From assembly GCA_018829185.1 (NCBI GenBank), contig JAHJUI010000014.1:1-56680 (forward strand): a stretch of DNA of 56,680 nt, written 5' to 3'. Each line of letters begins with the position of its first letter. Position 1 is the stretch's first letter. This stretch comes from Nanobdellota archaeon. GTDB taxonomy: Archaea > Nanobdellota > Nanobdellia > SCGC-AAA011-G17 > PNOQ01. Position numbers and translations under genes: made by a program. Positions 989 through 46,883 of the stretch are shown here, piece by piece. Under the pieces are notes generated by a model. That model did not search any database and was not told the DNA's origin. It saw only the letters and a program-made list of their open reading frames with translations.

Positions 989-1716
989 TGGACGAAATCA
1001 AATTCTTAGTTGATGAAACTCTTGAAGGAAGAGAGAAATTATTGAAAGATATAAATGAATTACTGGAATATAAACCAGTAGATCAACATGCGAGATTTTT
1101 AAGAGATTTTACTCATTGTTTGATTAAAGCTTCTGGTTTTAAACCTAGTACAGATTATAAACAAGTGCAACCTTTTGTTGGAAATACAAATGTTCATGTT
1201 ATTCAGAAATCTAGACCCTTAAAACCGTTGAGTTTTAAATTGCCCAAAGTTAGATTGATTCCAAGAGGTTCTAAAAAAGTACAAACTATGCGAACAGTTT
1301 CTAAGAAAAAAAGAGCACCATTAAATGTCCCTAAACCAATTCAATCTGGAATGCTTGATGATAAATTAGAAGTAAAGAATGGAAGTTATTATTATAATGT
1401 TAAGGAAAAAGTTAAACAAAATGAGTTTAAAGAAATGACAGCTTTGGTGCAAGATAATGATGTTAAAGCTATTTATTTTGAAGGAATGGGAAAACCAGTT
1501 TTAATTGATTATAAAGAAAAGGAAAAAGTTTATACTAAGGTTTTTTTGAAAGATTTGAAGAAAGTAAATAAAACAATAATGATTATTGCAAAAAAAGCTA
1601 AAGTTAAGATTAGTAAAAAAGATTCTTTCTTTGATGTTGTTTATAAAAATATGAGGATACAAGGAAATTTAGGTACAAAGTTTGCTAGTCCTAAATTAGT
1701 TATGAAAAAACTTTAA
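988..1716 (+). CDS. hypothetical protein resembling the N-terminal domain of FlaI/GspE-type secretion ATPases, with no ATPase domain
   Basis: The C-terminal half (VKAIYFEGMGKPVLIDYKEKEKVYTKVF...FFDVVYKNMRIQGNLG...PKLVMKK) looks like the N-domain that precedes Walker A in FlaI/VirB11-type ATPases. The ORF stops before any P-loop. Its 3' end overlaps the kae1 3' end. Confidence 0.4.
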   Translation: MDEIKFLVDETLEGREKLLKDINELLEYKPVDQHARFLRDFTHCLIKASGFKPSTDYKQVQPFVGNTNVHVIQKSRPLKPLSFKLPKVRLIPRGSKKVQTMRTVSKKKRAPLNVPKPIQSGMLDDKLEVKNGSYYYNVKEKVKQNEFKEMTALVQDNDVKAIYFEGMGKPVLIDYKEKEKVYTKVFLKDLKKVNKTIMIIAKKAKVKISKKDSFFDVVYKNMRIQGNLGTKFASPKLVMKKL

Positions 1717-2695
1717 CTTGGTCTGTTCTTTGGTAAGGATAAATTTTTGGATCTTTTGTTTTTAATTTGTATCCTGCTTTTACCATGCTGATACCTGTTG
1801 TTGCTATCATGGCACCGTTATCTACTAAATATTGATTTTCTGGAACAAAACATTTTGCATTTCTTTCTTTACACATTATTTTTGATTTTTCTTTTAGAAT
1901 AGTGTTGCAAGCTACTCCTCCGCCAAGTAATAATTCTTTTTTGTTACAATGTGCCATTGCTCTTTCTGAAACTTCTAGAAGCATTGCAAAAGTGGTTTCT
2001 TGTAATGAATAGCATAAATCTTCTATTTTGTATTTTTTTGAATCATATTTTTGTTTTAAATTTGTTAACATTCCTGTGAAAGATACATCCATTCCTTTTA
2101 CAACATAAGGTAATGGGATGAATTCTTTTCCTTTTTCTGCTAGTTTTGATATTTTTGGTCCGCCAGGAAATCCTAAACCAATGTATCTTGCAAATGAATC
2201 TATGAAGTTTCCAACACCTTGATCTAAAGTTTCTCCAAAAATTCTGTATTTTTGTGCTTCAAATGCAATTACTTGAGTGTTAGCTCCTGAAGCGTAAAGT
2301 AAAACAGGATCTTTTGCTTTTGTTAAGAATTTTCCAACTTCTAAATGAGCAACACAGTGATTAACTTCTACAAATGGAAGTTTTAGTTCCTTTACAATAT
2401 TTTGAGATACTTTTAAACAAGGTCCTAATCCTGGTGCTGCTGAATATGAGATAAAATCAATGTCTTTTAAAGAAACTTTTGCATTTTTTAATGCTTTATT
2501 TATTACTTCTTTGTATATTTTTTCATGGTGTTTTGCAGCTTCTATTGGGATTATACCCCCAGATTGGGTAGTGTAACTATTCTTTTCATTAGATAAAATC
2601 TTTTTAGAATTAGCTACAGCTGCTCCGAAAGTATCTCTGCATATTTTTTATTGTGCAGTACTTTCGATGCCAAGACACGTTATTCTATTTTCCAT
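1700..2695 (-). CDS. kae1: tRNA N6-adenosine threonylcarbamoyltransferase Kae1, interrupted by an 18-nt BHB intron (2635..2652)
   Basis: The minus-strand frame reads MENRITCLGIESTA, then an 18-nt interruption carrying TAA. It continues TFGAAVANS...GGIIPIEAAKHHEKIY...SAAPGLGPCLKV...VNHCVAHLE...ASGANTQVI...FGETLDQGVGN...GFPGGPKISKLAEKG...VKGMDVSFTG...LGGGVACN...DNGAMIA. This is a full-length Kae1/OSGEP-like protein, 325 aa after excision. The ORF track shows only the last 130 aa. Confidence 0.9.
2635..2652 (-). other. bulge-helix-bulge (hBHBh') mini-intron within kae1 mRNA
   Basis: Outer helix GAAAGUA(2665-2659)/UACUUUC(2633-2627). Central helix CUGC/GCAG (4 bp). 3-nt bulges ACA and AGA on opposite strands. 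Inner helix AUA/UAU with an AAAAA loop. Cutting after bulge nt 2 removes 18 nt in frame, including the TAA. Confidence 0.75.
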
Positions 2696-3904
2696 TTTGA
2701 TTTTGTTTCTCCTTTTGTTTATTCCTCCCTGTCTAATTATAATATTATGATTATTTAATACTTTTTGCATTATTTTTGTTGAAGAGAATCCTTCCTTTAA
2801 ATAATTATCTACTTCTTTTCCTAAATAAGCTGGCCAGTGATGATGAAGGCGCTTCGCTTTCATAATTTTTTCCATGAGTTGATACCTATAAGATTTAACA
2901 TGTGGACTAAATAGGGGCAATTCAATTGCTTTTTCTAATCTAAATTTAATTTGTCCTAAACTTCCTTTGTGCAAATAACTTTCTTCCCCATTTATGTTTA
3001 TAGTTTTTAATAATTCTTTAATGAATTTAGTATTTGGGCCAGTAATTATCCCTGCCCTGTGTGTTGTGATATCAATGTAACCATCAGAATCGGCTAAACC
3101 TTGCAAAAAGTAGATTTTAAATTCTTTTGGTGCTTTAATTAACCAGTTAGCTTTAATTGGATCATAAGTTGTTTTTTCTTTATTTTTTAATCCCAAACAC
3201 ACCTTGAATATCCATTGAATAAGTAAAGAAGATTGAGAGTGCCAAGCATAGAAATCATGTGTATTCCTTTTTCCTTTAGGGCAATTTTTACCTTGATTCA
3301 TTCTAAGCCCTATATTATTAGCACATAATTTAGTGAATTCTCCAAGCATTTTGTTTGTTTTGAATCTAGTTGAGAGTCTTAGTTGAATTCTTCTTGTGGT
3401 TCTATTTTTTCTTTTTATTTCCTTTTTAGAAGTATCTCCAACAAACATTCCCAATAAGTATGCGAAAAGAAGAGGTTTCATTTTTTCTATTGATTTAAAA
3501 TTTATGTTAAATTTATTGAAATCTTTTAAATTATTTATGGATTTAAGTTGTTTTATTACTTTAATTAAATCTCGATAACTATTTATCTTCTCCGGAACTT
3601 TTATCCACGGTTCTTTTAGTATTCCACCCCTTGTAGAATTTATTGCCAACCACTTATAATCTTTTTGTGGTTTTCTAAGATTTTTGGAATATTGTGAATA
3701 ATGAACTAAGTATGGCACACTTTTCAATCGGATCCATTTCTCGATTGTTCCTTTTGGGGTTTTTGTTTTATTTGATATTTCTTTCTCTAAAAATCCCTTT
3801 TTCTTTAAATAATCAACTTCTAAAAATTTTTTGAATCTTTCCTTTTCTTTATCGGAAAAATTTATGCTCCAAAAATAATTTATAAATTCTAGATCGTTAT
3901 TCAT
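2648..3904 (-). CDS. free-standing two-motif LAGLIDADG endonuclease-like protein with an N-terminal HTH-like region
   Basis: LAGLIDADG-like motifs LLFAYLLGMFVGDTS and IYFLQGLADSDGYI, both keeping the acidic residue. The ORF runs in frame through the kae1 ATG and stops at the TAA inside the kae1 intron. Confidence 0.8.
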   Translation of the reverse strand: MNNDLEFINYFWSINFSDKEKERFKKFLEVDYLKKKGFLEKEISNKTKTPKGTIEKWIRLKSVPYLVHYSQYSKNLRKPQKDYKWLAINSTRGGILKEPWIKVPEKINSYRDLIKVIKQLKSINNLKDFNKFNINFKSIEKMKPLLFAYLLGMFVGDTSKKEIKRKNRTTRRIQLRLSTRFKTNKMLGEFTKLCANNIGLRMNQGKNCPKGKRNTHDFYAWHSQSSLLIQWIFKVCLGLKNKEKTTYDPIKANWLIKAPKEFKIYFLQGLADSDGYIDITTHRAGIITGPNTKFIKELLKTININGEESYLHKGSLGQIKFRLEKAIELPLFSPHVKSYRYQLMEKIMKAKRLHHHWPAYLGKEVDNYLKEGFSSTKIMQKVLNNHNIIIRQGGINKRRNKIKMENRITCLGIESTAQ

Positions 3905-3926
3905 ATTTTATTGATGAGGTTTATTC

Positions 3927-3968
3927 TTTATAAATTCTTTTGTCGTACTTGTCATTGTTGTCACAGTG
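3927..3968 (-). promoter_or_regulatory. TATA box plus conserved upstream element CACTGTGACAACAATGACAAGTACG
   Basis: In gene sense: CACTGTGACAACAATGACAAGTACG, then 9 nt, then TTTATAAA, then about 24 nt, then ATG (3904). A near-identical element lies at 20291-20316 and a shorter version at 41282-41302. Confidence 0.5.
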
Positions 3969-4017
3969 TAGAAAAGTTAGTTTTTTAAGTTTTTTGTTAT
4001 TGTTATATTATGAGAAA

Positions 4018-4272
4018 ATGATGAATTTGAAAGGAATAAAAAAAGGACTTGTAACAATTTTATTGACTTGTTTTGCTACACCTGCTTTTTCTATATCAGA
4101 GCCTGATTCTACCTCTCAGCTAAAGAATACTTCTTTTGGAAAATATTATAATGATATATGTATTATTGATTCTGAAGGCAAAGGAGAGCCTGTTAGGATT
4201 GGATGGAGCTCTAACCCTGGATGGTCTCCTGATGGGAAGAATATAGTTTATCAAGTAGAATACCGTTATTAG
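4018..4272 (+). CDS. small secreted protein with a single PD40/TolB-like repeat
   Basis: MMNLKGIKKGLVTILLTCFATPAFS looks like a signal peptide. GWSPDGKNIVY is PD40-like. Ends in TAG. Confidence 0.35.
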   Translation: MMNLKGIKKGLVTILLTCFATPAFSISEPDSTSQLKNTSFGKYYNDICIIDSEGKGEPVRIGWSSNPGWSPDGKNIVYQVEYRY

Positions 4273-4314: not shown

Positions 4315-6108
4315 ATGCATTTTGGGGCAAAAAGTAGGATTGCTATTTTTTTGTTAGTTATTTTACTGTTTTCTTTTTTTGTTTATGCAAAAGGAATTTC
4401 TAATCTTGATTATATTGAACAGGAAGGGCCAAAGGAAATTGAGGATATAGAAGTTGTTGTAGAAGAGATTTCTCCTATTGATTTATGGATAGAAAAAATT
4501 TATTTTGAAGATGAATTAATTGCTAAGGAAGAATTGGATTTAATTGTTGAAATTGGTTCTAATTATCTTGAAGAAGTTGAAGTTGAAGTTAAAATTGAGA
4601 TAAAAGAGATTAGAGAAGGAGAAAATGATTTTGAAAAGGATAAATTTATGTTTGAATATAAAAAAGAAATTAAGTTTGCCAAAAAAGAAAAATTAATTTT
4701 TGGCCCGATAATATTTGATAAACCAGGGGAATATGATATTATTGCAACTATTGAATCTTCTGTAAAAGAAAAAGATAAGAAGAATAATGAAATTAGTGGT
4801 TTGTTTTTCTTTCCATTTTTAAGTTGTGAAGATGGAACTTACCATGATGAATGTAATAAAGATTTATTGTTTTGTGATAATGGAGAGTTAGTGGCTAATT
4901 GTGGTAAATGTGGTTGTGAAGAAGGTTTAGTTTGTGTTTCTGATGAATGTGTGGAAAGAGAATATGATGAAGGGATGTTAGGAACTAAAACTTTTTTTTA
5001 TGTTGGAAGAAAATTAGTTGCTCAGGAAAAAGATGATGAATTTAGTTATTATCATCATGATAATTTAGGAAGTGTTAGAAAAATTACTGATGAAAATGGA
5101 AGTGTTGTTTCTTCTTTTGAATATTTTCCTTTTGGTGAAAAATACAGTCAAGAAGGAGAAAGTGATTTTGAGTATACAGGACAAAAATTTGATTCAACTG
5201 GTTTGAATTATTATGGTGCTAGATATTATGATAGTTCTTTGGGTAGGTTTATTACATCTGATCCAGGACATGATGGAGTTAATTGGTATGCTTATGTTGG
5301 AAATAATCCTGTAACTAGGGTTGATCCAAATGGATTAGAAGATTATGATGTTAAATTAAAATATAAAGCATTGGGTTTTTCTTCTCCTAGGGAAGAGGGA
5401 ATTAGTTATACTTATAGTGAAGGAATTGGTATAAAATATGATTCAGTAAAAGGAGAATATTTAGATAATGCAAATGATGCTGGATGGAAATCTAGTTATA
5501 TACAAACCTTACCAGATGGATTTTTTACAGGTGTTGGAGCTTGTATAGGAATTGGTTTAGGAACATTCAAAAGTCACATAGATACTTTAGAAAGAGAGAT
5601 TATGGAAAATGCTAATAACGAATTTAATGTGGGTAGTTCTTCTAGTGGTGGAAATATAATTGCCACTGGTTTAAGTCCAGAAGCTAAATCTAAAATAGAT
5701 TTGTGGTATGCTGTGAGTGGTGTTCCTTTAATGGAAGATTGGCAGAAAGTTTATATGCATTATACTTTATTTGTTATTGTACGTGTTCCTGATTTCATAA
5801 ATGGATTAGAAGATTTTCCAGTTCCTGATCCTGTTACTTGGGTGACAGGTATTTTATTTCCCCATAGGATTCATGGTTTTAGTATGGTTCATTGTGATCT
5901 AAATGGTGCTGAACTTATTCGTGAAACTAGGCAATTAACTGCAGATAAGTTAGCAGGAAATAATCCTGATCCCTTTGCATGGAGCGGGGTTGTTCTTCCT
6001 GGAGGAAGGATGGATAGAGAACTCAATCCACATGCGTACAGTTGGCCAGATTTAGAAGATCAAAGAAGTGAAAGAACCGTTAGTGCAGAACTTATGTATT
6101 TAAATTAA
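4315..6108 (+). CDS. secreted polymorphic-toxin-type protein: signal/TM, CARDB-like and Cys-rich regions, RHS repeat-associated core, variable C-terminal domain
   Basis: YYHHDNLGSVRKITDENGSVV..FEYFPFGE...YTGQKFDSTGLNYYGARYYDSSLGRFITSDP...NWYAYVGNNPVTRVDPNGL is the RHS/YD core tip ending in the DPxGL motif (5323-5337). It is followed by about 255 aa with no recognisable family. Confidence 0.8.
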   Translation: MHFGAKSRIAIFLLVILLFSFFVYAKGISNLDYIEQEGPKEIEDIEVVVEEISPIDLWIEKIYFEDELIAKEELDLIVEIGSNYLEEVEVEVKIEIKEIREGENDFEKDKFMFEYKKEIKFAKKEKLIFGPIIFDKPGEYDIIATIESSVKEKDKKNNEISGLFFFPFLSCEDGTYHDECNKDLLFCDNGELVANCGKCGCEEGLVCVSDECVEREYDEGMLGTKTFFYVGRKLVAQEKDDEFSYYHHDNLGSVRKITDENGSVVSSFEYFPFGEKYSQEGESDFEYTGQKFDSTGLNYYGARYYDSSLGRFITSDPGHDGVNWYAYVGNNPVTRVDPNGLEDYDVKLKYKALGFSSPREEGISYTYSEGIGIKYDSVKGEYLDNANDAGWKSSYIQTLPDGFFTGVGACIGIGLGTFKSHIDTLEREIMENANNEFNVGSSSSGGNIIATGLSPEAKSKIDLWYAVSGVPLMEDWQKVYMHYTLFVIVRVPDFINGLEDFPVPDPVTWVTGILFPHRIHGFSMVHCDLNGAELIRETRQLTADKLAGNNPDPFAWSGVVLPGGRMDRELNPHAYSWPDLEDQRSERTVSAELMYLN

Positions 6109-9253: not shown

Positions 9254-9373
9254 GGGCCCATAGCTTAGCCTGGCTATAGCACTGGTCTTATATGACCCAC
9301 AGGTTGTGGCTAAGACAGCCAGAGAATATATTTATTCGGCTAAAGGTCGCCGGTTCAAATCCGGTTGGGCCCA
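9254..9373 (+). tRNA. tRNA-Ile(TAT) with two BHB introns (9293-9316 at 37/38; 9323-9343 at 43/44)
   Basis: Acceptor GGGCCCA/TGGGCCC. Anticodon stem CTGGT/GCCAG. Loop CT-TAT-A|A. T arm GCCGG-TTCAAAT-CCGGT. Both introns sit in 4-bp-helix/3-nt-bulge motifs. Excision gives the canonical variable loop AGGTC. Confidence 0.8.
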
Positions 9374-9418
9374 CCTTATAGTTAAATTTAAAAAGGCCTG
9401 GAGTTCTCAAAATCTTAT

Positions 9419-12375: not shown

Positions 12376-12475
12376 GGGCCCGTGGCTCAACGGTAGAGCA
12401 TCGCCTTTGCAAGGCGGGGGTTTCGGGTTCGAAATTTTGGACCTTCGGTCTGAAACGAAAGTCCCGACGGGTCCA
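12376..12475 (+). tRNA. tRNA-Ala(TGC) in the 16S-23S spacer, with a 28-nt BHB intron in the T-loop (12434-12461, position 59/60)
   Basis: Acceptor GGGCCCG/CGGGTCC with G3:U70. TCGCC-TTTGCAA-GGCGG anticodon arm. T stem TCGGG/CCCGA. Central helix TTCG/CGAA with bulges AAA and AGT. Inner 9-bp helix capped by TTCG. The mature T-loop is TTCGAAT. Confidence 0.85.
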
Positions 12476-14547
12476 CCTTGAAACAAATGCAATTCCGGAA
12501 CGAAAGTTTGGAATGAAGAGTTTCAGTCAGCTTCGGCTGTTTAGAATATCATATTCATGAATCTATGCAAAAGCAAGTATACCTAAGGCTTAAACTATTA
12601 GAGGAAAGACTTGGCTTGAATGTTGAAGAAGGCCGTGGCCAGCTGCGATATGTCTGGGGTAGGCGCATGCAGCCTGTGATCCCAGAATTGCCGAATAGGA
12701 CTTCCATTCTTTTATAAGAAGATCAGTAATGATCGATAACGCGGGGGATTGAAGCGTCTTAGTACCCGCAGGAAAAGAAATCAATTGAGATGCCGCTAGT
12801 AACAGCGAGCGAACGTGGCATAAGGCAAACCGAATCCTTTGTAGCAATACAAAGGACATGTGGTGTTATAGGACTTTCTTTTAATCCTTTTTGATGAGTT
12901 GAAGTGTTCTGGAAAGAACTACTATAGAGGGTGATAGTCCCGTAAACGAAATCTTTGAGGATGTGAAAGTATCCTGAGTAGGGCTCATTGGATATTGAGT
13001 CTGAATTTAGGAGGCATCAACTTCTAACCTTAAATACTATTCAAGACCGATAGCGTACTAGTACCGCGAGGGAAAGTTGAAAAGAACCCTTAATAGGGAG
13101 TGAAAAGAATCTGAAATCTAATAGTGATAGTGTGATGCTGCTCTTCGGAGTTGCATCGTACGTTTCGAATAACGGACCAGGGAGTGTACTTGAGTGGCAA
13201 GACTAACTTTTTAAAAAAGGAAGTCGGAGCGAAAGCGAAAACCCGCAGGCAACGAGGGGTGTGGTGTTAATGCGCCATTAGTCACTTGGGTACGACCCGA
13301 AACCGGACGAACTAGTCCTGAGCAAGGTGAAGCAGGGATAAAACCTTGTGGAGGCCTGCAGAGGTGCTGTGGACAAGCGTTCTTCTGACTTGGGACTAGG
13401 GGTGAAAAGCCAATCGAGTCCGGTGATAGCTGGTTCCTGCCGAAATATGTCGTAGCATAGTCTCAACTGAGATTACTAAGATGGTAGAGCTACGGACTGG
13501 GAGTTTTGGGGAGTAAAATCCTCGGCTTCCTATCCAACTCCAAATGTTTTAGAATCGTAGACGTTGGGAAACAGCGGCACGCGGTAAACGTGTGTCGCTA
13601 AAGGGGAACAACCCAGCCTGAAGTTAAGGTCCCAAAATACTAATTAAGTGTGAAAGGGTGAATGGTGTATAACATCAGAGACAGCGGGGAGGTAGGCTCA
13701 GAAGCAGCCATCCTTTAAAGAAAGCGTAATAGCTCACCTGTCAAGATCTTGTGCCCAGAAAATGGACGGGGCTAAATTAGTTACCGATACTTCAGACATC
13801 CGCAAGGATTGTGGTAGGCAGGCGTCCTGCTTGAGCAAAACTTTTCTCGTAAGAGGAAAGGAATCGAGTAGGAATGAAAATCCTGGTGGTAGTAGGACCA
13901 GTATACAGTGAGAATCTGTATTACCGAAAGGGCAAGGGTTTCTTAGCAATACAGTTTAGCTAAGAGTAAGTTGATCCTAAGGCAATTCCTAACTGGACAT
14001 TGTCGAAAGGGAAAACGGTTAACATTCCGTTACTATTTAAATACATATGGCAACATTAGTTTTATTCTTGACGGTTTGGGCTAGATTAACAACTCTCGTC
14101 GGAGTTGCTAACTAAAATAAGTCTGGGGAGTATCGTAACGATGAGATCCAGATTAAATTTAGGAATGGTCTGTCTTAAGACAGATTTAGTCAATGCCTAG
14201 ATCCCGTGAAAAAAGAATAGATCGGATTTTAAATAATCATACCCAGAACCAGCACAGGTGCCCCAAGGTTAGTAGCCTAAGGTATGAGGGAGTAATCCAA
14301 CTAAGGGAATTCGGCAAATTAGTCCCGTGACTTTGGTATAAGGGATCCCTGCGTTTGTATCCGTATGGATGCGAATACAGGGCGCAGTGACTAAGGAGGC
14401 CCGACTGTTTAACAAAAACGTAACTTTTCGCTAGCCTCAAAAGGTGTGTATGGAAAGTGACGTCTGCCCAGTGCCCGTACTTGAAACTCGGTTTCAACTG
14501 AGCTAAGAGCGGGTAAACGGCGGGAATAACTATAATTCTCTTAAGGT

Positions 14548-15253
14548 AAGCAATAGTTGCCTTAGTAAAATTTGGCTATATGCTGGAAAGTCTGAGTATT
14601 CCATGCTACTCGATTTACATTGTGACAAGTTCACGCAAAGAATTTATAAACAATGTAAGTCAGTAACAAGGTATGGATGCAGATAATCAGCAGGAAAGAC
14701 TAGAGGCTCAATGGATTGTTGGATTTGTCGACGGTGAAGGAAGTTTTCTGATTTCAATAAATAAGAATGAGAAAATGACTTTGGGTTGGCAAGTTTTACC
14801 AGAATTCAGGGTAGTTCAACATCAAAATGATGAACAAATTTTATATAAAATCAAAGATTATTTTGGTTTTGGGAATGTTGTTGTGAATCATGGAGATAGA
14901 AAAGAGTTCAGAGTTAGAGGTTCTGAAAATATTAAAAAAATTATTTTGTTTTTTAAGAAAAATAATTTAAGAACTTCAAAAAATAAAAACTTTGAAATTT
15001 TTTGTAATGTTGTTGGACGGATGGAAGATGGACAACATTTAGACAAACAAGGTTTGTTAGAAATAGCAAGTTTGGCATCCAATATTAATAATAAAATAGA
15101 TAGAGTTTCTAGAATCCTCAGAGACTATACGCCAAACACACATTAAGTGTGAAGATATAGTCCGATCCTTGCAGCGATGTAAGGAGATTAACAGAAATGT
15201 TAATCCGCCATCTTTGATGGTTAGTAACCATTTTGGTGAAAGTAACAGATATG
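14548..15253 (+). mobile_element. group I-type intron in 23S rRNA carrying a LAGLIDADG ORF
   Basis: Exon join AAGGT|AGCGTAATGCC restores the conserved sequence. The 5' exon ends in U, paired as TAAGGT with GCCTTA (P1-like, terminal U.G) 12 nt into the intron. The intron ends in G. No BHB can be drawn at the junctions. Confidence 0.7.
14673..15146 (+). CDS. single-motif LAGLIDADG homing endonuclease (intron-encoded)
   Basis: WIVGFVDGEGSF motif. 157 aa, the size of I-CreI/I-CeuI-type homodimeric enzymes. Lies inside the 23S intron. Confidence 0.85.
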   Translation: MDADNQQERLEAQWIVGFVDGEGSFLISINKNEKMTLGWQVLPEFRVVQHQNDEQILYKIKDYFGFGNVVVNHGDRKEFRVRGSENIKKIILFFKKNNLRTSKNKNFEIFCNVVGRMEDGQHLDKQGLLEIASLASNINNKIDRVSRILRDYTPNTH

Positions 15254-16265
15254 AGCGTAATGCCTTGTCGTTTTATTGACGACGTGCATGAATGGCGTAA
15301 CGAGGTCTCTACTGTCCCTAGTTGGAATCCCCCGAACACATTATCCTGGTGCAAAGACCAGGGACCTCCAGTGGGAAGCAAAGACCCCGTAGAACTTTAC
15401 TACAGTTTGTTGTTGTGATGTGAGTTTTGTTGTGCAGTATAGGTGGGAGTTGTTATGTTTCAAGCGCTAGTTTGGAAATAGACATCAGTGAGATACCACC
15501 CTTCAGAGTTTACATTGCTCACCTTGGAAACAAGGGACATCAGTAAATGGGTAGTTTGCCTGGGGCGGGACCCTGCTGAAACGATATCAGCAGGGCCCAA
15601 AGGTTGACTCAACCGGGTCAGAAATCCGGTGTAGAGTGCAAGAGCAAAAGTCAGCCTGACTGTGTTTCGAACCATAAGAAACGCAGAGCAGAAATGCCGG
15701 TCTAGCGAACCCCTATGTCCTCTTTGATGGGGGCTAGGTATGACAGAAAAGCTATCTCGGGGATAACTGAGTGGTAGCGCCTAAGAGCTCAAATCGACGG
15801 CGCTGTTTGCTACTTCGATGTCGGCTCGTCGCAACCTGGGCGTGCAGAAGCGCCCAAGGGTGGGGGTGTTCACCCATTAAAGCGGCTCGTGAGCTGGGTT
15901 CAGAACGCTGTGAAGCAGTTTGTTCGATATCTAGTGGAGGTGTTCGGTGTCTGAGAGGAAGGATCTTTTAGTACGAGAGGAACGGAGGTTCGGGGCCTCT
16001 AGTCAACCGGTTATCTGATAAGGTAGGCCGGGCAGCCACGCCCCAAGGGATAAGAGCTGAAAGCATCTAAGCTCGAAACCCCCCTCGAAAAGAGACACTT
16101 CAAGTTCTTGTAGAAGACAAGGTTGATAGAAACGGCGTGTAAGCATTAAGGCAACGAGATGTTCAGCGTGCGTTCACTAATTACTTGACAACTTTAGGTA
16201 TACTTGCGCATAGTTTTCATTTTTTTTCAAAATTATTGAGAACTAGTTAGTACTATTTTAAAAAA

Positions 16266-20384: not shown

Positions 20385-21323
20385 ATGGATTTACTTCATA
20401 CTGAAAAAAATCTTATTTTTAATGAAAAGGGTAATGAGATTAATTTTAAGGGGGTTTCTATAGCAGATCCTTTTTGGATTAAAAATGTTGATAAACTAAA
20501 TCCCCTTGATGTTGTTAAAAAAGCAAAGACTCTTGGTTCTAATATAATTAGAGTGCCAATCCATCCAGGTTATTGGAGATATGAAAAAAATTATCTTAAA
20601 AAATACATTGATCCAGTAGTTAGTTTGTCTCAGAAGCTTAAACTATATTTGCTTCTTGATTGGCATCCGATAGGGAATCCTAAAACAAATGAAACAAGAA
20701 GAAATGATAAAATAGGAAAATACCTGGTTCATGATGTAAATTTAAATTTAGCCAAAAAAGCATTAAAAGAGATTTCTGGGAAGTATCAAAAAAGGTCTAA
20801 TGTGATTTATGAAATTTTTAATGAGCCAGCACCAGGAGATAATCCCCCAGCATTCATGAAGATTAAACCTTTGTATTGGAAAGATTGGAAACCAATTGCT
20901 GAAGATTTAGTTGAAGTTGTTCGCAAAGAAAATCCTTTTTCTTTGATTGTTGTTGGTGGAACAAAATGGGCTTATGATTTAAGTAAAGTTAGACAGAACC
21001 CTGTAAATAAAGAAAATATAGTTTATGCAGTGCACCCATATCCAATACACAAAGACTGGGATAAAGCATTTGGGAGAACATCTAAAAAATACCCCGTTCT
21101 TGTTACAGAATTTGGTTTTAAAAAGAAAACAAGGGAAAAATTTATGAGGGGGACTAAAACTGGTTATGCCAAACCAATTTTTAAGTATCTTAAGAAACAT
21201 AAAATTGGATGGATTGCTTGGTGTTTTAATCATAAATGGGGGCCCAGAATGCTAGACTCTTGGGAGCCTTTGAAGTATACTGAATGGGGCCAAATTGTTA
21301 AAGAAGAACTAAAAAACAAATAA
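20385..21323 (+). CDS. glycoside hydrolase family 5-like (cellulase-type)
   Basis: IYEIFNEPAPG (acid/base Glu in NEP) and PVLVTEFGF (nucleophile Glu). (beta/alpha)8-type spacing. Confidence 0.75.
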   Translation: MDLLHTEKNLIFNEKGNEINFKGVSIADPFWIKNVDKLNPLDVVKKAKTLGSNIIRVPIHPGYWRYEKNYLKKYIDPVVSLSQKLKLYLLLDWHPIGNPKTNETRRNDKIGKYLVHDVNLNLAKKALKEISGKYQKRSNVIYEIFNEPAPGDNPPAFMKIKPLYWKDWKPIAEDLVEVVRKENPFSLIVVGGTKWAYDLSKVRQNPVNKENIVYAVHPYPIHKDWDKAFGRTSKKYPVLVTEFGFKKKTREKFMRGTKTGYAKPIFKYLKKHKIGWIAWCFNHKWGPRMLDSWEPLKYTEWGQIVKEELKNK

Positions 21324-40813: not shown

Positions 40814-40870
40814 ATGGAAATCAAAGTAAAGCAAGTAAAAGACTATGTTTGGGAAATTCCTAAAAAATGA
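40814..40870 (+). other. 18-codon upstream ORF resembling an RtcB N-terminus
   Basis: MEIKVKQVKDYVWEIPKK resembles the ..K.ID...WEIPK.. start of archaeal RtcB. The TATA box (TTTTTATATA) lies about 25 nt upstream. The stop overlaps the archease ATG (ATGA). Confidence 0.3.
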
Positions 40871-41277
40871 AATTTAAATTTATTGAAAATTTAACTTCAG
40901 ATGTTATGTTTGAAGCTTATGGCAAGGATTTAAAGGAATTATTTGAAAATTCTGCTATTGCCTTATTTAATGTTATTTGTAAAATTAGTAAAGTTAAAAC
41001 TATTAAATTTGTAGAAGTTGAAATTGAGGGGGAGAATATTGAAGATTTACTAATTAATTGGTTACAGGAGTTAATTGCTTTGGTTGATATCAAAGAAATG
41101 TTTTTTTCTAAATTTGAGATTTTAGAAATTTCTGAGAAAAAATTAAAAGCTAAGGTTTATGGAGAGAAAATAAGTCCTGAAAAAGGAGAGACTGTTGTTA
41201 AGGCTGTAACTTATCATAATTTTAAATTAGAGAAAAATAAAAAAGGTTATACAACAAGGGTTGTTTTTGATATTTAG
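40867..41277 (+). CDS. archease (RtcB activator)
   Basis: FKFIENLTSDVMFEAYGKDLKELFENSA...VKAVTYHNFKLEK...TRVVFDI. 136 aa. Confidence 0.85.
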   Translation: MKFKFIENLTSDVMFEAYGKDLKELFENSAIALFNVICKISKVKTIKFVEVEIEGENIEDLLINWLQELIALVDIKEMFFSKFEILEISEKKLKAKVYGEKISPEKGETVVKAVTYHNFKLEKNKKGYTTRVVFDI

Positions 41278-41281
41278 CTTA

Positions 41282-41317
41282 CCACTGTGACAAGTGCGCA
41301 GGAAGGATTTATAAATG
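41282..41317 (+). promoter_or_regulatory. short form of the conserved element (CCACTGTGACAAGTGCGCAGG) plus TATA box
   Basis: Same 5' CACTGTGACAA and GT(A/G)CG core as at 3944-3968 and 20291-20316. ATTTATAAAT follows, then the ATG (41338) about 22 nt downstream. Confidence 0.5.
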
Positions 41318-41337
41318 AAAAATTCTGTTTTTATCTA

Positions 41338-42225
41338 ATGGATATAGATTTATATAAACTAATAAGCAAATCAGATTTAGTAAGAATTTCTATTAAAAAA
41401 GAATTTAGATATCATGTTAAAAATAAATTAAAGAATAAATTTGGAACTTTAAAACAAGCTTCTATTGAATTAGGAATAAATTTTGTGACTTTTCAAAATT
41501 GGTGGTTAGGTAGAAGGGGTCCTTTATTGAAGGATTGGTTAAATTTATGTAAAAAACTTGATATTTCTGAAGATAAATGTTTTAAAAATATAGAAAATTT
41601 TTATTCTAACAATCAACGATATTCTATAATGTTTCCTAGGTTTAGGGAAATTGATGAAGAGTTATTAGCAGAGGGTGTTGGTTTGTATATAGCAGAAGGA
41701 ATAACTTCTAAAAATAGTAATGAAATTTCTTTAAGTAATACAGATTTTGGTGTTTTGAAATTTTATATAAAATGGTTAGAGCATTGTTTTGATATCGATA
41801 AAAATAAATTAAATATTTATGTTTATTCTCATGATGAGAATTTTAATAAAAATGATTTAATTGAAAAATGGTTGAAAAAGCTTAAGGTTTCTAGAATAAA
41901 TAAAGTGTATTATTATAAAAAATCTACAAGGGAGTGTGGATTGATCGTTTGCTCAAGATCTATTTTAAGATATTTATTAAATGAATTAATAATTGAAGCT
42001 AAAATTTTGATTAAGGAAGATAAGAAATTAGCCCATGCTTATTTGAGGGGCATTCTTGCCGGAGAAGGACATGTTTATATTGATAAAAATAGACCTATTC
42101 GTTATGTTGAATTTGGATTGAAAAATAAAAAGGAAATTGAATTTATTATTGACTTATTAAATATGTTGGGGATAAAATTCTCTGAGATAGAAAAACCGAA
42201 CTTTACTAACATCATGATTTGTTAG
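41338..42225 (+). CDS. free-standing two-motif LAGLIDADG endonuclease-like protein with an N-terminal HTH
   Basis: LLAEGVGLYIAEGI and AYLRGILAGEGHV motifs. HTH-like TLKQASIELGINFVTFQNW. The TAG stop is followed by 28 more in-frame sense codons ending at the rtcB ATG. Confidence 0.75.
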   Translation: MDIDLYKLISKSDLVRISIKKEFRYHVKNKLKNKFGTLKQASIELGINFVTFQNWWLGRRGPLLKDWLNLCKKLDISEDKCFKNIENFYSNNQRYSIMFPRFREIDEELLAEGVGLYIAEGITSKNSNEISLSNTDFGVLKFYIKWLEHCFDIDKNKLNIYVYSHDENFNKNDLIEKWLKKLKVSRINKVYYYKKSTRECGLIVCSRSILRYLLNELIIEAKILIKEDKKLAHAYLRGILAGEGHVYIDKNRPIRYVEFGLKNKKEIEFIIDLLNMLGIKFSEIEKPNFTNIMIC

Positions 42226-42320
42226 AAGAAGAATTTAGAAAAGTTAATAAATAACGGAGGTTTTGGTTCTAATGAGGAAAGAACTCTTAAGTTGATTAAA
42301 GCTTATAATTCATATAAAAA

Positions 42321-43727
42321 ATGAAAGAAAATTTAAAAAAATTAAACGAATTTGAATGGGAATTAGATAAAACTGTTAGAAAAGAAATGCGGGTTAAAGC
42401 AAAAATTATTGCTAATGATAAGATTATGAATGCGATTGAGAATGAAGCTATAACTCAATTAACTAATGTTGCTTGTTTGCCGGGTATAATTGAACCCGCT
42501 ATTGGCCTTCCAGATATGCATTGGGGCTATGGCCTGCCAATGGGTGCTGTAGGGGCATTTGATGCAGAAGAAGGAATAATCAGTGCCGGACTTTGTGGTT
42601 TTGATATAAACTGTGGAATTAATTTAATTAGAACTAATTTGACTCTTAAAGAAGTTTTAGAAAAACAGAAAGAATTAGTTAGTGCTTTATTTAATAAAAT
42701 CCCTTGTGGGGTTGGAAGCAAAGGAAAATTAAGATTAACAAAAGAAGAATTAAATGAAGTTCTTTTAAATGGAGTTAATTGGGCTTATGATAAAGGTTAT
42801 GCTACTAAAAAAGATATTAAATCTACAGAAGAAAATGGATGTATGAAAGGAGCAGATCCAAGTAAAGTTTCTGATTTAGCTAAAAAAAGAGGATGTCCTC
42901 AATTAGGGACCCTTGGTGCAGGAAATCATTTTTTAGAAATACAAAAAGTTACTGATGTTTTTGATAACAATATGGGTAAAAAATGGGGTGTAATTGATAA
43001 GGATCAAGTTTTGATAATGTTACATTGTGGTTCTCGTGGATTAGGACATCAAGTAGCTAGTGATTATTTGAAAATACAGGAAAAAGCAGTCAAAAAATAT
43101 AATATTTGGTTGCCTGATAATCAATTGGTCTGTGCTCCAGTAAATAGTAAAGAAGGACAAGATTTTTTTGCTGCAATGAAAGCTGCAGTTAATTATTCTT
43201 TTACAAATAGAGCCGTTATTACAAAATGGATTAGGGAAGTTTTTGAAAAAGTATTTAAAAAAGACTGGGAAAAATTAGAAATGGAAAATGTTTATTCTAT
43301 TGCTCATAATATTGTTAAATTAGAAGAGCATACTGTTAATGGTAAAAAGAAAAAATTATATGTTCACAGAAAAGGTGCTACTAGAGCATTTCCTGATATG
43401 CCTGTAATAATTGCTGGCTCAATGGGAACAAGTTCTTACTTACTAAAAGGGACCGATGTTGCTATGCAAAAGACATTTGGAAGCAGTGCTCATGGTGCTG
43501 GAAGAGCAATGTCAAGACATGCTGCTATTAAGAGTTTTAGAGGTGAAGAGATTAGTAAAAATTTGTTGAGTAAAGGTATTGTGAGCAAGGCTACTTCTTG
43601 GAAGAGTTTAGCTGAGGAAGGTCCTTTAGCGTATAAAGATATTGAAGAAGTTATTAATAGTGTTCATGGTGCTGGAATTTCTTTGAAAGTTGCTAGAATG
43701 GAGCCAGTTGGTGTGATTAAAGGTTGA
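42321..43727 (+). CDS. rtcB: RNA-splicing ligase RtcB
   Basis: NVACLPGI, GLPDMHWGYGLPMG, GFDINCG, GAGNHFLEIQ, HCGSRGLGHQ, HNIV, HRKGATRAF, GSMGTSSY, SSAHGAGR. Confidence 0.95.
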   Translation: MKENLKKLNEFEWELDKTVRKEMRVKAKIIANDKIMNAIENEAITQLTNVACLPGIIEPAIGLPDMHWGYGLPMGAVGAFDAEEGIISAGLCGFDINCGINLIRTNLTLKEVLEKQKELVSALFNKIPCGVGSKGKLRLTKEELNEVLLNGVNWAYDKGYATKKDIKSTEENGCMKGADPSKVSDLAKKRGCPQLGTLGAGNHFLEIQKVTDVFDNNMGKKWGVIDKDQVLIMLHCGSRGLGHQVASDYLKIQEKAVKKYNIWLPDNQLVCAPVNSKEGQDFFAAMKAAVNYSFTNRAVITKWIREVFEKVFKKDWEKLEMENVYSIAHNIVKLEEHTVNGKKKKLYVHRKGATRAFPDMPVIIAGSMGTSSYLLKGTDVAMQKTFGSSAHGAGRAMSRHAAIKSFRGEEISKNLLSKGIVSKATSWKSLAEEGPLAYKDIEEVINSVHGAGISLKVARMEPVGVIKG

Positions 43728-45867: not shown

Positions 45868-46299
45868 TTATTTTAACCTTTTATGGATAGATTCTAAAAA
45901 TTTGATTACTTTCCTTGCATATTCTTCATCAAAGGACTTACCGTAGTATGTTATCCCATTTCTAAAATATCTTAATTGATTTGCAAATTGGATCTCTTTT
46001 TCAGAGAAATTTAGTATTCTTAAATAGGCTACTTCAGCTTCATGTGCTCCTAATCCAGAGGAATTAAAACCTTCTAGTAGCATTTTAGCTCTAATCAATT
46101 CCATGATAATATCGTAAGCATTTTTAATTATGTTGTTTGCGTTTGAATTATTTATTCCAATCTTCTTAATTATATCTATAAGGAAATTATATGATTTTTT
46201 TGATTCTTTCTTTAATGAATTTACCCTAGATTTATCAGGAGATTGTTTTTTAACTATTCCTTCTTTTACAAATTCATTAAAATTTCTTAATGGTTTCAT
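45868..46299 (-). CDS. HEPN-domain protein (toxin-like partner of the MNT gene)
   Basis: All-helical, 143 aa. LRYFRNGITYYGK motif region. ATGA overlap with the upstream NTase gene. Confidence 0.65.
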   Translation of the reverse strand: MKPLRNFNEFVKEGIVKKQSPDKSRVNSLKKESKKSYNFLIDIIKKIGINNSNANNIIKNAYDIIMELIRAKMLLEGFNSSGLGAHEAEVAYLRILNFSEKEIQFANQLRYFRNGITYYGKSFDEEYARKVIKFLESIHKRLK

Positions 46300-46838: not shown

Positions 46839-46883
46839 TTTAGTTTATAGGTGTAAACTATAGTTTATAAATGTTTCTTTTTA

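What the first reader, a model, noticed from the sequence alone, without database searches (positions are those of the whole stretch)
2627..2665. 18-nt bulge-helix-bulge intron inside the kae1 coding sequence: excision removes an in-frame TAA and rebuilds the conserved TAHTFG motif
Seen in sequence: on the minus strand, kae1 reads MENRITCLGIESTAQ-TAA-KICRDTFGAAV. The RNA around the stop folds as follows.
- Outer helix GAAAGUA (2665-2659) / UACUUUC (2633-2627), 7 bp.
- Central helix CUGC (2658-2655) / GCAG (2640-2637), exactly 4 bp.
- Two 3-nt bulges on opposite strands, ACA (2654-2652) and AGA (2636-2634).
- Inner helix AUA/UAU closed by AAAAA.

This is the canonical hBHBh' substrate geometry of the archaeal tRNA-splicing endonuclease. 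I applied the cut rule (after nt 2 of each bulge) that yields correct mature anticodon, variable and T loops for the three tRNA introns in this window. It excises exactly 18 nt (2652..2635). The excision is in frame, takes out the TAA, and joins CA|T into a His codon. The product reads GIESTAHTFGAAVAN and the protein is 325 aa, a typical Kae1 length.

Established, from memory: BHB introns in archaeal protein-coding genes are known essentially only for cbf5 in Crenarchaeota. I know of none in kae1.

Inference: production of the essential t6A enzyme would depend on the tRNA splicing endonuclease and on RtcB/archease, which are encoded at 40.8-43.7 kb in this window.
Basis: partly seen in the sequence, partly recalled or inferred. 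Interest (0 to 1): 0.93.

Follow-up and report, generated by a model that had tools for sequence, protein, structure and literature searches.

The report
Spliced mini-intron inside archaeal kae1 gene
An essential tRNA-modification gene (kae1) of a tiny DPANN archaeon is interrupted by an 18-base intron of the kind normally found in tRNAs. The same intron recurs in related genomes, nearly always next to a homing-endonuclease gene, which suggests how such mini-introns spread.

Summary
Minus-strand kae1 carries an in-frame TAA inside an 18-nt insert (2652..2635). [quoted passage not shown] Excision at the canonical bulge positions yields a 325-aa Kae1 with the invariant ESTAHTFG motif.

Comparative data settle it. 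Twelve distinct kae1 alleles from independent assemblies carry an intron at this exact site, 14-24 nt long and not always a multiple of 3. The same cut rule restores the frame in every one. Helices covary, exon codons are tuned to form the outer helix, and interrupted alleles evolve under strong purifying selection (dN/dS about 0.04).

It abuts kae1, runs in frame through exon 1, and stops at the intron's TAA. ORF and intron co-occur: 5 of 6 intron alleles against 0 of 97 intronless ones. Both are present or absent among 94-96 % identical kae1 alleles.

Best reading: an EndA/RtcB-spliced mRNA intron that belongs to a roughly 1.3-kb cassette, probably mobilised by the adjacent endonuclease ("collaborative homing"). 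Splicing and nuclease activity are inferred, not shown.

The parts
2653..2695 (-). kae1 exon 1 (ATG 2695-2693; codes MENRITCLGIESTA plus the first base, C, of the His codon)
   Evidence: The peptide LGIESTA is conserved in all intron-bearing alleles, with synonymous variation.
2635..2652 (-). 18-nt BHB intron AAUAAAAAAUAUGCAGAG, containing the in-frame TAA (2650-2648)
   Evidence: Clean 18-nt gap against the closest relatives (alignment A1). Covariance model R1 scores 70.1 bits here, against 25 bits or less for intronless alleles.
1700..2634 (-). kae1 exon 2 (supplies AT of the His codon, then TFGAAV... to stop 1702-1700)
   Evidence: Homology with intronless L059 resumes exactly at 2634.
2626..2666 (-). 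Complete BHB substrate: 8-bp exon-exon outer helix, 4-bp exon-intron central helix, two 3-nt bulges, weak inner hairpin
   Evidence: dG -17.3, z -5.5. (94.7 % of cells paired, 5 pairs with double changes, 0 of 500 shuffles as good). (all 12 variants fold the same way).
2648..3904 (-). HTH-LAGLIDADG ORF. 403 codons of its own (3904-2696), then it reads in frame through kae1 exon 1 and ends at the intron's TAA (418 aa in all)
   Evidence: ORF. (both LAGLIDADG motifs, D157 and D274 invariant in 26 homologues). (pLDDT 92; best PDB match I-DmoI, TM 0.66-0.69). (24 homologue clusters end in ...LG(I/V)E(S/C)TA plus 1-3 residues).
3905..3934 (-). Upstream end of the cassette, with a TATA-like TTTATAAA (3934-3927) about 23-30 nt before the LAGLIDADG ATG. 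Putative promoter for the LAGLIDADG-kae1 transcript.
   Evidence: Homology between the window and L139 (different upstream genes) starts here. The promoter role is inferred from sequence only.
42321..43727 (+). RtcB RNA ligase, which would join the kae1 exons
   Evidence: Pfam PF01139, 528 bits.
40867..41277 (+). Archease, the RtcB cofactor
   Evidence: Pfam PF01951, 136 bits.

Best explanation
The 18 nt at 2652..2635 are a genuine archaeal bulge-helix-bulge intron inside the kae1 mRNA.

**Splicing layer.** Exon codons for E-S-T and T-F pair with each other to form the outer helix. The last bases of exon 1 (CUGC) pair with the 3' end of the intron (GCAG) to form the 4-bp central helix. The tRNA-splicing endonuclease EndA cuts after the second base of each 3-nt bulge. 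RtcB with archease ligates the exons. This rebuilds the His codon (C|AU) and the invariant ESTAHTFG motif, so a full-length 325-aa Kae1 can be made only from spliced RNA.

**Cassette layer.** The intron is not a private accident of this genome. It belongs to a cassette of about 1.3 kb: a promoter, an HTH-LAGLIDADG endonuclease ORF, a replacement kae1 exon 1, and the intron. The cassette is found at the 5' end of kae1 in many Woesearchaeota-like (DPANN) genomes and is absent from their nearest relatives.

I infer that the LAGLIDADG protein is a free-standing homing endonuclease that cuts intronless kae1 at the conserved, pseudo-palindromic motif-coding site (GAAAGTA-N7-TACTTTC). On this reading the intron splits that site and protects the carrier. 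Repair of a cut allele then copies endonuclease gene, exon 1 and intron together. This would be the BHB-intron counterpart of 'collaborative homing'.

In this window the endonuclease ORF has no stop of its own. It terminates on the intron's TAA, so unspliced RNA yields the endonuclease, while spliced RNA yields Kae1 and possibly a fusion protein.

**Shown:** structure, conservation, covariation, frame restoration, selection, co-occurrence.
**Inferred:** actual splicing, nuclease activity and target, mobility.

Confidence is about 0.9 for the splicing layer and about 0.5 for the homing layer.
For: 1. A clean 18-nt insertion relative to uninterrupted relatives at 94 %, 91 % and 81-82 % identity, located exactly at the predicted cut sites.
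2. Twelve distinct introns at the same site, all from independent samples and assemblers: window 18 nt, L139 16, L140 15, L141 18, L142 17, L143 24, L145 18, L003 and L005 groups 18, L049 18, L147 16, L151 14. In every one the BHB cut rule restores ...TAHTF(G/S)... Lengths of 14, 16 and 17 nt shift the frame, so readthrough cannot rescue them.
3. Covariation. The central helix is CUGC/GCAG, CAGC/GCUG or CCGC/GCGG. The outer helix changes from A-U to G-C in L049. All three inner-helix pairs change. Overall 94.7 % of cells are paired, 5 pairs show double changes, 0 of 500 shuffles reach this, and slid controls reach 29-45 %.
4. All 12 sequences fold by minimum free energy into the same outer helix, 3' bulge and central helix. 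A covariance model scores two alleles not used to build it at 52 and 48 bits. Intronless alleles score 25 bits or less, and nothing else matches in 869 kb.
5. Exon codon choice. The exon-exon helix has 7.9 of 8 pairs in intron alleles and 4.9 of 8 in 90 distinct intronless alleles, p = 8e-8.
6. Selection. kae1 dN/dS is 0.042 between two intron-bearing alleles (dS 0.70) and 0.046 against intronless L059.
7. In 24 of 24 LAGLIDADG homologue clusters with an exon-1 tail, the residue after ...TA is L, Q, R, H or P. These are residues whose codons can begin with C, as expected if exon 1 always ends with the C of the His codon. A stop follows within 1-3 codons.
8. Machinery. RtcB and archease are in the window. 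BHB introns in two tRNAs of the window obey the same cut rule.
9. Cassette and mobility.
   - In the unbiased Kae1-derived locus set, 5 of 6 intron alleles have the LAGLIDADG ORF against 0 of 97 intronless alleles, Fisher p = 7e-8.
   - The two LAGLIDADG homologues that showed no exon-1 tail (41-50 % identity) also sit on an intron-bearing kae1.
   - Kae1 identities are window-L059 (no intron) 95 %, L139 (intron)-L059 96 %, and L005 (intron)-L063 (no intron) 94 %.
   - Against L059, homology stops in the shared promoter region and resumes at the first base of exon 2.
   - The genes upstream of the cassette differ between loci.
   - The catalytic Asp of both LAGLIDADG motifs is invariant. The fold matches I-DmoI. 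LAGLIDADG dN/dS is 0.08-0.14.
Against: - No RNA data. Splicing, the exact cleavage positions (1-nt ambiguity, A|A) and ligation are all inferred.
- EndA was not found among the 27 window ORFs scanned with Pfam, so it has to be encoded elsewhere in the genome.
- The inner helix is weak or absent in several variants (80 % paired). L145 has two mismatches. The substrate is therefore a relaxed BHB that needs a broad-specificity EndA. That is plausible for DPANN (PMC5829648) but was not verified for this organism.
- Homing layer: no cleavage data exist and the target site is a guess. L049 keeps the intron without the ORF.
- Sustained purifying selection on the LAGLIDADG protein across the whole family would also fit a domesticated DNA- or RNA-binding role. 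WhiA and the bI3 maturase are among the structural neighbours.
- The loci fetched through LAGLIDADG proteins were partly chosen because their tails already implied an intron. Only the Kae1-derived set is unbiased.
Confidence: 0.85

Rival explanations
1. The intron is real and spliced, but the LAGLIDADG protein is not a mobility factor. It is a domesticated HTH/LAGLIDADG DNA- or RNA-binding protein (WhiA-like regulator, or maturase-like helper of kae1 expression or splicing) that is co-transcribed with kae1. The patchy distribution reflects an old vertical association with repeated joint loss.
For: - The family is under purifying selection (dN/dS 0.08-0.14) and is well conserved down to 38 % identity, with two flanking HTH regions.
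- Structural neighbours include WhiA and the bI3 and I-AniI maturases.
- The ORF always overlaps the kae1 start, so the two genes are expressed as a unit.
- Selfish homing endonuclease genes usually decay after fixation.
Against: - Both catalytic Asp residues are invariant in all 26 aligned members. WhiA has lost them (established knowledge).
- Presence or absence differs among 94-96 % identical kae1 alleles, with precise boundaries, and the cassette sits in different upstream contexts. This is the classic signature of a mobile element.
- 97 intronless kae1 genes do without the protein.
Confidence: 0.3
2. kae1 here is a pseudogene, or the 18 nt are an assembly or sequencing artefact. The BHB-like fold is coincidental.
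For: - There is an in-frame stop, and no canonical start codon downstream that could give a full protein.
- Loose BHB-like motifs are frequent by chance in this AT-rich window.
Against: - The same site is interrupted in 12 distinct alleles from NCBI, ENA, JGI and Logan assemblies.
- Helices covary.
- dN/dS is 0.04 between two interrupted alleles and there are no other lesions.
- The spliced protein scores above the arch_KAE1 trusted cutoff over the full model.
Confidence: 0.01
3. The insert stays in the mRNA and the ribosome deals with it, either by stop-codon readthrough or by translational bypassing (as in T4 gene 60), producing Kae1 without RNA splicing.
For: - A stop codon follows exon 1 closely and sits in a hairpin, which superficially resembles bypass elements.
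- In this window the insert is a multiple of 3.
Against: - Inserts of 14, 16 and 17 nt in relatives change the frame.
- Readthrough would insert 5-6 residues into the invariant ESTAHTFG phosphate-binding motif.
- The only GCA landing codon in the insert would give ...EIL..., not HTFG (sequence).
- The conserved features are exactly the two bulges and the 4-bp helix of an EndA substrate.
Confidence: 0.02

Closest known systems
cbf5 pre-mRNA BHB intron of Crenarchaeota (Watanabe 2002; Yoshinari 2006; Yokobori 2009, PMC2738675)
   Same: - A short ORF-less BHB-type intron (16-44 bp in cbf5) inside the coding sequence of an RNA-modification enzyme.
- It interrupts a functionally critical, conserved codon.
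- It must be removed by EndA and a ligase.
- Its distribution is patchy, with inferred gain and loss.
   Different: - Different gene (kae1, t6A synthesis) and a different archaeal group (Woesearchaeota-like DPANN).
- Even shorter introns (14-24 nt), located 43 nt into the gene.
- The outer helix is made purely of coding exon sequence.
- It is physically linked to a LAGLIDADG ORF. For cbf5 no nuclease partner is known, and the authors explicitly left open how such a short intron could move.
BHB intron in the 5' UTR of Haloferax volcanii HVO_1309 mRNA (PMC7714728)
   Same: An mRNA substrate of the archaeal splicing endonuclease outside tRNA and rRNA.
   Different: It lies in the untranslated leader, not in the reading frame. 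No frame or motif is restored, and there is no associated endonuclease gene.
Non-canonical tRNA BHB introns, as in this window's tRNA-Ala T-loop and tRNA-Ile
   Same: Same motif geometry, the same cut rule (after base 2 of each bulge), and the same presumed enzymes. The 5' exon pairs with the 3' part of the intron.
   Different: The host is an mRNA. Helix-forming exon bases are also constrained by codons, and there is no tRNA body to help recognition.
Collaborative homing: free-standing F-CphI next to the ORF-less group I intron in cyanophage S-PM2 psbA (PMC6083498); T4 mobE / I-TevIII (PMC2790892)
   Same: A free-standing homing-endonuclease gene sits next to a gene that carries an ORF-less intron. 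In the known cases the intron interrupts the enzyme's target and protects the carrier, and the nuclease gives the intron mobility. Here the two parts are co-inherited as a unit.
   Different: - The known cases are self-splicing group I introns in phages, with Endo VII-like or HNH enzymes.
- Here the intron is protein-spliced (BHB), 14-24 nt long and in a cellular essential gene, and the enzyme is a LAGLIDADG protein whose ORF ends inside the intron.
- Nuclease activity and target are untested here.
Archaeal rRNA BHB introns encoding LAGLIDADG endonucleases (I-DmoI, I-PorI)
   Same: A monomeric double-motif LAGLIDADG fold (I-DmoI is the best structural match) associated with an EndA-spliced intron.
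   Different: There the ORF lies inside a large intron in rRNA. Here it lies outside and upstream of a mini-intron in a protein gene, and it has extra N- and C-terminal HTH regions.
HAC1/XBP1 unconventional mRNA splicing (IRE1 plus tRNA ligase/RtcB)
   Same: Spliceosome-independent excision of a short mRNA intron defined by RNA stem-loops. In metazoans the exons are joined by RtcB, and the excision changes which protein is made.
   Different: A different endonuclease (IRE1, stress-regulated), in eukaryotes. It is not homologous at the level of the intron.

Membership tests
Archaeal BHB intron (EndA substrate) | Two 3-nt bulges on opposite strands, separated by a 4-bp helix and flanked by helices (hBHBh' or relaxed variants) | tested here: met
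   The 3' bulge and the 4-bp helix appear in the minimum-free-energy fold of all 12 variants. The 5' bulge and inner helix are strict in 4 variants and relaxed (loop) in the others.
Archaeal BHB intron (EndA substrate) | Cleavage within the bulges yields a functional mature product | tested here: met
   In silico, cutting after base 2 of each bulge restores ...TAHTF(G/S)... and the Kae1 frame in all 12 alleles despite lengths of 14-24 nt. The same rule is correct for two tRNA introns in the window.
Archaeal BHB intron (EndA substrate) | Structure conserved through compensatory changes while the sequence drifts | tested here: met
   94.7 % of cells paired, 5 pairs with changes on both sides, covariation score 0.314 against 0.115 for shuffles (0 of 500 as high), slid controls 0.095 or less.
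Archaeal BHB intron (EndA substrate) | Organism encodes the splicing endonuclease and the RtcB-type ligase | tested here: inconclusive
   RtcB and archease are present in the window. EndA was not found in the 27 window ORFs scanned. The rest of the genome is not available. The tRNA BHB introns in the window imply that EndA exists.
Archaeal BHB intron (EndA substrate) | Intron is actually excised and the exons ligated in RNA | not testable with these tools
   No transcriptome data are accessible.
LAGLIDADG homing endonuclease (free-standing) | Two LAGLIDADG motifs, each with a conserved acidic catalytic residue | tested here: met
   Motif 1 LFAYLLGxxxGD157xSK160 and motif 2 FLQGLADSD274G. G152, G156, D157, K160, Q268, G269, S273, D274 and G275 are invariant in 26 sequences down to 38 % identity. 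Both motifs align to the PI-SceI motifs.
LAGLIDADG homing endonuclease (free-standing) | Pseudo-dimeric alpha-beta-beta-alpha-beta-beta-alpha fold | tested here: met
   AlphaFold2 model with pLDDT 92 and pTM 0.90. Foldseek top hits are I-DmoI-DNA complexes (E 3e-7, TM normalised to target 0.66-0.69), then PI-SceI and I-AniI.
LAGLIDADG homing endonuclease (free-standing) | Site-specific cleavage of alleles that lack the element | not testable with these tools
   Requires an enzyme assay. The candidate target is the intronless GAAAGTA-N7-TACTTTC region of kae1.
LAGLIDADG homing endonuclease (free-standing) | Presence/absence polymorphism among close relatives with precise boundaries | tested here: met
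Collaborative homing (free-standing nuclease plus ORF-less intron) | Nuclease gene adjacent to a gene with an ORF-less intron, and the two co-inherited | tested here: met
   5 of 6 against 0 of 97, p = 7e-8. Every LAGLIDADG-bearing kae1 locus examined carries the intron.
Collaborative homing (free-standing nuclease plus ORF-less intron) | The intron interrupts the nuclease's recognition site and confers immunity | not testable with these tools
   Inference only.
Kae1 (KEOPS t6A synthase), spliced product | Full-length match above the trusted cutoff, including the N-terminal phosphate-binding motif | tested here: met
   TIGR03722 at 427.4 bits (cutoff 375), model positions 1-321 of 323. ESTAHTFG is shared with the 40 closest homologues.

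The most novel reading that the evidence does not exclude
A new kind of composite mobile element in archaea. A free-standing LAGLIDADG homing endonuclease gene and an ORF-less 14-24-nt BHB mini-intron invade an essential protein-coding gene together. The nuclease targets the conserved motif-coding DNA. The intron, spliced by the host tRNA-splicing machinery, makes the insertion harmless and shields the carrier from its own nuclease. The nuclease ORF uses the intron's stop codon, so splicing decides whether nuclease alone or a nuclease-Kae1 read-through product can be translated. This would explain how very short archaeal mRNA introns, which are too small to encode a nuclease, are gained and spread.
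Probability: 0.45. Interest if true: 0.92.

Novelty: new variant of a known kind. Interest (0 to 1): 0.86.

Why it matters
- For more than twenty years, essentially one archaeal protein gene (cbf5, in Crenarchaeota) has been known to need tRNA-type splicing of its mRNA. This finding adds a second gene, in a very different lineage.
- Twelve natural sequence variants are already in hand. They define what the endonuclease must recognise in an mRNA: a substrate built largely from coding sequence.
- Synthesis of the universal t6A tRNA modification in these reduced DPANN cells is thereby tied to the tRNA-splicing enzymes.
- It explains why automated annotation reports kae1 as missing or truncated in such genomes (130-300-aa fragments).
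- The tight linkage with a LAGLIDADG gene turns an open question from the cbf5 work into a testable one: how can introns too short to encode a nuclease be mobile (PMC2738675)? One protein can be expressed and tested on one 40-bp target, with and without the intron.

Tried and rejected
- A permissive BHB scan with introns up to 1200 nt gave thousands of hits and was useless. The stricter scan showed that motif matching alone is not significant in this AT-rich DNA, 98 hits against about 135 simulated. Significance therefore rests on quality and on comparative data.
- The second-best BHB candidate (20650-20762, minus strand) lies antisense inside an intact 312-aa ORF. I rejected it as chance.
- I checked whether rtcB, which also has a LAGLIDADG ORF directly upstream, is interrupted. 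It is not: the full RtcB domain and a normal N-terminus are present. A weak BHB hit at 42218-42276 does not remove the stop of that ORF.
- tblastn 'contiguous' matches at first suggested that no relative had the intron. This was misleading, because tblastn aligns through the in-frame stops. A regex rescan plus manual inspection of 21 uncalled loci was needed.
- Long homologues (700-1500 aa) of the LAGLIDADG protein were tested for being host-gene/intron-ORF fusions. Their extensions contain only extra HTH repeats.
- A thaumarchaeal homologue sits tail-to-tail with EF-1alpha, not next to kae1.
- EndA was not found in the 27 window ORFs scanned.
- The exact 130-aa downstream kae1 fragment is not in the protein collection, and the 418-aa fusion ORF is a singleton cluster.
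- Translational bypass or readthrough, pseudogene and artefact readings were considered and rejected (see rival explanations).
- The scenario in which the cassette derives from a large ORF-containing intron by deletion does not fit, because exon 1 lies between the ORF and the mini-intron.
Full report
**1. What is in the window**

On the minus strand, an ORF begins at ATG 2695 and reads MENRITCLGIESTAQ, then TAA (2650-2648). The same frame continues as KICRDTFGAAV... to a stop at 1702-1700.

The 53-nt RNA around the stop folds at -17.3 kcal/mol. The z-score is -5.5 and none of 200 dinucleotide shuffles folds as well. The fold consists of:
- an 8-bp helix made only of exon sequence (CGAAAGUA / UACUUUCG);
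- a 3-nt bulge AGA on the 3' side;
- a 4-5-bp helix between the end of exon 1 (CUGC) and the 3' end of the insert (GCAG);

Deleting 2652..2635 gives a 325-aa protein. It matches the archaeal Kae1 model TIGR03722 over positions 1-321 of 323, at 427 bits against a cutoff of 375.

The window is a complete 56,680-bp contig with 31.5 % G+C. Its kae1 relatives are labelled Woesearchaeota or Nanoarchaeota. It also carries archaeal 16S and 23S rRNA and RNase P RNA.

**2. Is the motif more than chance?**

Motif matching alone is not significant. A strict hBHBh' scan with introns of 11-150 nt found 98 hits in the window, against about 135 in Markov-simulated sequence. The kae1 site is the best of them, with a 9-bp outer helix, six G-C pairs and one G-U. 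The only comparable hit lies antisense in an intact ORF.

The rule 'cut after base 2 of each bulge' is validated inside this window. It gives a correct 7-nt anticodon loop for tRNA-Ile (intron 9293-9316). It also gives a correct T-loop UUCGAAU for the spacer tRNA-Ala (intron 12434-12461).

**3. Comparative evidence for the intron**

*Relatives without the insert.* The closest full-length Kae1 proteins are uninterrupted and read ...ESTAHTFGAAVANSKK..., exactly the predicted spliced sequence. They are 94 % (L059), 91 % (L054/L060) and 81-82 % (L055-L058) identical. The DNA alignment shows a clean 18-nt gap at the predicted cut sites.

*Relatives with an insert.* tblastn had aligned straight through in-frame stops. 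A rescan showed that other loci carry an insert at the identical position. Further alleles were fetched through homologues of the upstream ORF. There are now twelve distinct introns:

| Locus | Intron length (nt) |
|---|---|
| window | 18 |
| L139 | 16 |
| L140 | 15 |
| L141 | 18 |
| L142 | 17 |
| L143 | 24 |
| L145 | 18 |
| L003 | 18 |
| L005 group | 18 |
| L049 | 18 |
| L147 | 16 |
| L151 | 14 |

In every allele the same cut rule rebuilds the His codon and ...TAHTF(G/S)... Three lengths are not multiples of three, so the downstream frame is reachable only by excision.

*Structure and covariation.*
- The central helix covaries: CUGC/GCAG, CAGC/GCUG and CCGC/GCGG.
- The outer helix has a compensated A-U to G-C change in L049 (GAAGGUA/UACCUUC).
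- All three inner-helix pairs change.
- On alignment A2, 94.7 % of cells pair and five pairs show changes on both sides. No shuffle out of 500 reaches the observed values, and slid controls pair at only 29-45 %.
- All twelve sequences fold independently into the same architecture.
- A covariance model built from ten of them scores two held-out alleles at 52 and 48 bits. Intronless alleles score 25 bits or less, and nothing else matches in 869 kb.

*Exon codon choice.* Synonymous choice in the exons is bent to the structure. The exon-exon helix has 7.9 of 8 pairs in intron-bearing alleles and 4.9 of 8 in 90 distinct intronless alleles, p = 8e-8. For example, Ser is AGT instead of the usual TCA. 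The Thr third base matches the intron.

*Selection.* The interrupted genes are under strong purifying selection. dN/dS is 0.042 between the window and L139, both interrupted, with dS 0.70. Among the L003-L006 alleles it is 0.04-0.10.

Pseudogene, artefact, readthrough and ribosomal bypass are therefore excluded, or nearly so.

**4.

Directly upstream lies a 403-codon ORF (3904-2696). It has no stop codon of its own. It continues in frame through kae1 exon 1 and ends on the intron's TAA, giving a 418-aa ORF at 2648..3904.

The protein is an HTH-flanked double-motif LAGLIDADG protein.
- Both motifs and their catalytic Asp residues (D157, D274) are invariant across 26 homologues down to 38 % identity.
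- The AlphaFold2 model has pLDDT 92.
- Its best PDB matches are I-DmoI-DNA complexes (TM 0.66-0.69). They are followed by PI-SceI, I-AniI, the bI3 maturase and WhiA.
- The family has about 200 clusters at 50 % identity with E < 1e-30.
- Twenty-four clusters at 90 % identity end in ...LG(I/V)E(S/C)TA plus one to three residues. The first extra residue is always L, Q, R, H or P. These are residues whose codons can begin with C, as expected if exon 1 always ends in the C of the His codon.

Members whose ORF ends earlier, or in another frame, still overlap the start of an intron-bearing kae1 (L147, L151).

**5. Linkage and polymorphism**

*Co-occurrence.* In the unbiased set of loci found by Kae1 similarity, five of six intron alleles have the ORF. 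None of 97 intronless alleles with at least 400 nt of upstream sequence has it (Fisher p = 7e-8). L049 has the intron but no ORF.

*Intermixing at the tips of the Kae1 tree.*

| Pair | Intron state | Kae1 identity |
|---|---|---|
| window - L059 | intron / none | 95 % |
| L139 - L059 | intron / none | 96 % |
| window - L139 | intron / intron | 94 % |
| L005 - L063 | intron / none | 94 % |

*Boundaries.* Against L059, which has the same flanking genes, homology ends in the shared promoter region (window about 4281). It resumes at 2634, the first base of exon 2. Against L139, which has different upstream genes, homology starts about 30 nt before the LAGLIDADG ATG, at a TATA-like TTTATAAA.

Promoter, nuclease ORF, a distinctive exon 1 (ME/GNR...CLGIESTA against MISLGLESTA) and the intron therefore behave as one cassette of about 1.3 kb. 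The cassette sits in varying upstream contexts. The LAGLIDADG ORF itself is under purifying selection (dN/dS 0.08-0.14).

**6. Mechanism**

*Inferred with high confidence.* EndA cuts the two bulges. RtcB and archease, both encoded in this window, join the exons. Only spliced RNA encodes Kae1.

*Inferred with moderate confidence.* The LAGLIDADG protein is a free-standing homing endonuclease. Its target would be the intronless kae1 site, a 21-bp pseudo-palindrome GAAAGTA-N7-TACTTTC that encodes an invariant motif. The intron would split that target and make the insertion phenotypically silent. Repair of a cut allele would copy the whole cassette. This is the logic of 'collaborative homing' described for phage group I introns (PMC6083498, PMC2790892), now proposed for a protein-spliced BHB intron.

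The in-frame stop within one to three codons of the intron start in all 24 tails is consistent with selection. Such a stop would terminate translation of unspliced RNA, and in this window the nuclease ORF as well.

The main rival is that the LAGLIDADG protein is domesticated, as a regulator or maturase. That reading is not excluded.

**7. Relation to what is known**

In the searchable literature, the only BHB introns in archaeal mRNAs are cbf5 in Crenarchaeota and a 5'-UTR intron in Haloferax HVO_1309 (PMC7714728; reference list of PMC12397907; PMC2738675). The cbf5 introns are 16-44 bp and are described as 'too short to encode such a nuclease'. No paper connects kae1 with an intron.

DPANN EndA enzymes with an extra loop are associated with many disrupted tRNA genes (PMC5829648). 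That makes a relaxed-BHB mRNA substrate plausible.

This is therefore a new variant of a known kind. It has a new host gene, a new lineage and the shortest such introns yet seen. Its linkage to an external nuclease gene has no described counterpart among BHB introns.

**8. Limits**

- No RNA or enzyme data exist.
- EndA was not found in the 27 window ORFs scanned.
- The cut sites have a 1-nt ambiguity.
- The loci fetched through LAGLIDADG proteins are partly biased toward intron carriers.
- Look-up quotas prevented sampling of more family members.

Noticed in passing
window 41287-42225 (+), with continuation to about 42320: A second LAGLIDADG_3 ORF (312 aa) sits between archease (40867-41277) and RtcB (42321-43727). 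After its TAG the same frame stays open for another 32 codons. rtcB itself looks intact, so this is another free-standing nuclease gene beside a conserved RNA-processing gene, but without an intron.
   Followed up: partly
window 12580-16200; ORF 14673-15146; Rfam hit 15048-15184: The 23S rRNA is about 630 nt longer than the Rfam model. The extra stretch holds a single-motif LAGLIDADG ORF (157 aa) and a sub-threshold group I intron match (40 bits, E 2e-8). This probably belongs to the archaeal group I rRNA introns reported for Woesearchaeota (PMC6125680).
   Followed up: partly
window 9254-9375: tRNA-Ile(UAU) has two introns. One is a canonical 24-nt BHB intron (9293-9316). The other is an insertion of about 22 nt in the variable region, which my strict BHB scan did not resolve.
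   Followed up: partly
window 12376-12475: The tRNA-Ala(UGC) in the 16S-23S spacer has a 28-nt BHB intron in the T-loop (12434-12461) with a 9-bp inner helix. Standard tools report only a truncated tRNA.
   Followed up: yes
L059 2998-3000: The closest intronless relative has ATA where L054 has the kae1 ATG, and there is no other canonical in-frame start after the upstream stop. This is either a non-canonical start or a sequencing variant.
   Followed up: no
L141 1233-1847 and L143 1849-2475: In two cassette-bearing loci, the Sua5/TsaC gene (the other enzyme of t6A synthesis) lies immediately upstream of the LAGLIDADG-kae1 unit. L141 also has an IS605 OrfB/TnpB-like gene just downstream of kae1.
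   Followed up: no
L153/L154 3001-4407: A Nitrososphaerota homologue (33-35 % identical) of the LAGLIDADG protein lies tail-to-tail with the EF-1alpha gene, 7 nt apart. The wider family may sit beside other conserved translation genes.
   Followed up: no
window 3940-4272 (+) and 4315-6108 (+): Between the cassette and the RHS/YD-repeat gene lies a 110-aa ORF with a signal peptide and a PD40-like repeat. It is absent from the syntenic L059 locus, so the window differs from L059 by more than the cassette alone.
   Followed up: no
window 46296-47823 (-): There are two nucleotidyltransferase ORFs (one with an N-terminal winged-helix region) and a weak HEPN-domain ORF between them. This is a likely toxin-antitoxin-type module.
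   Followed up: no
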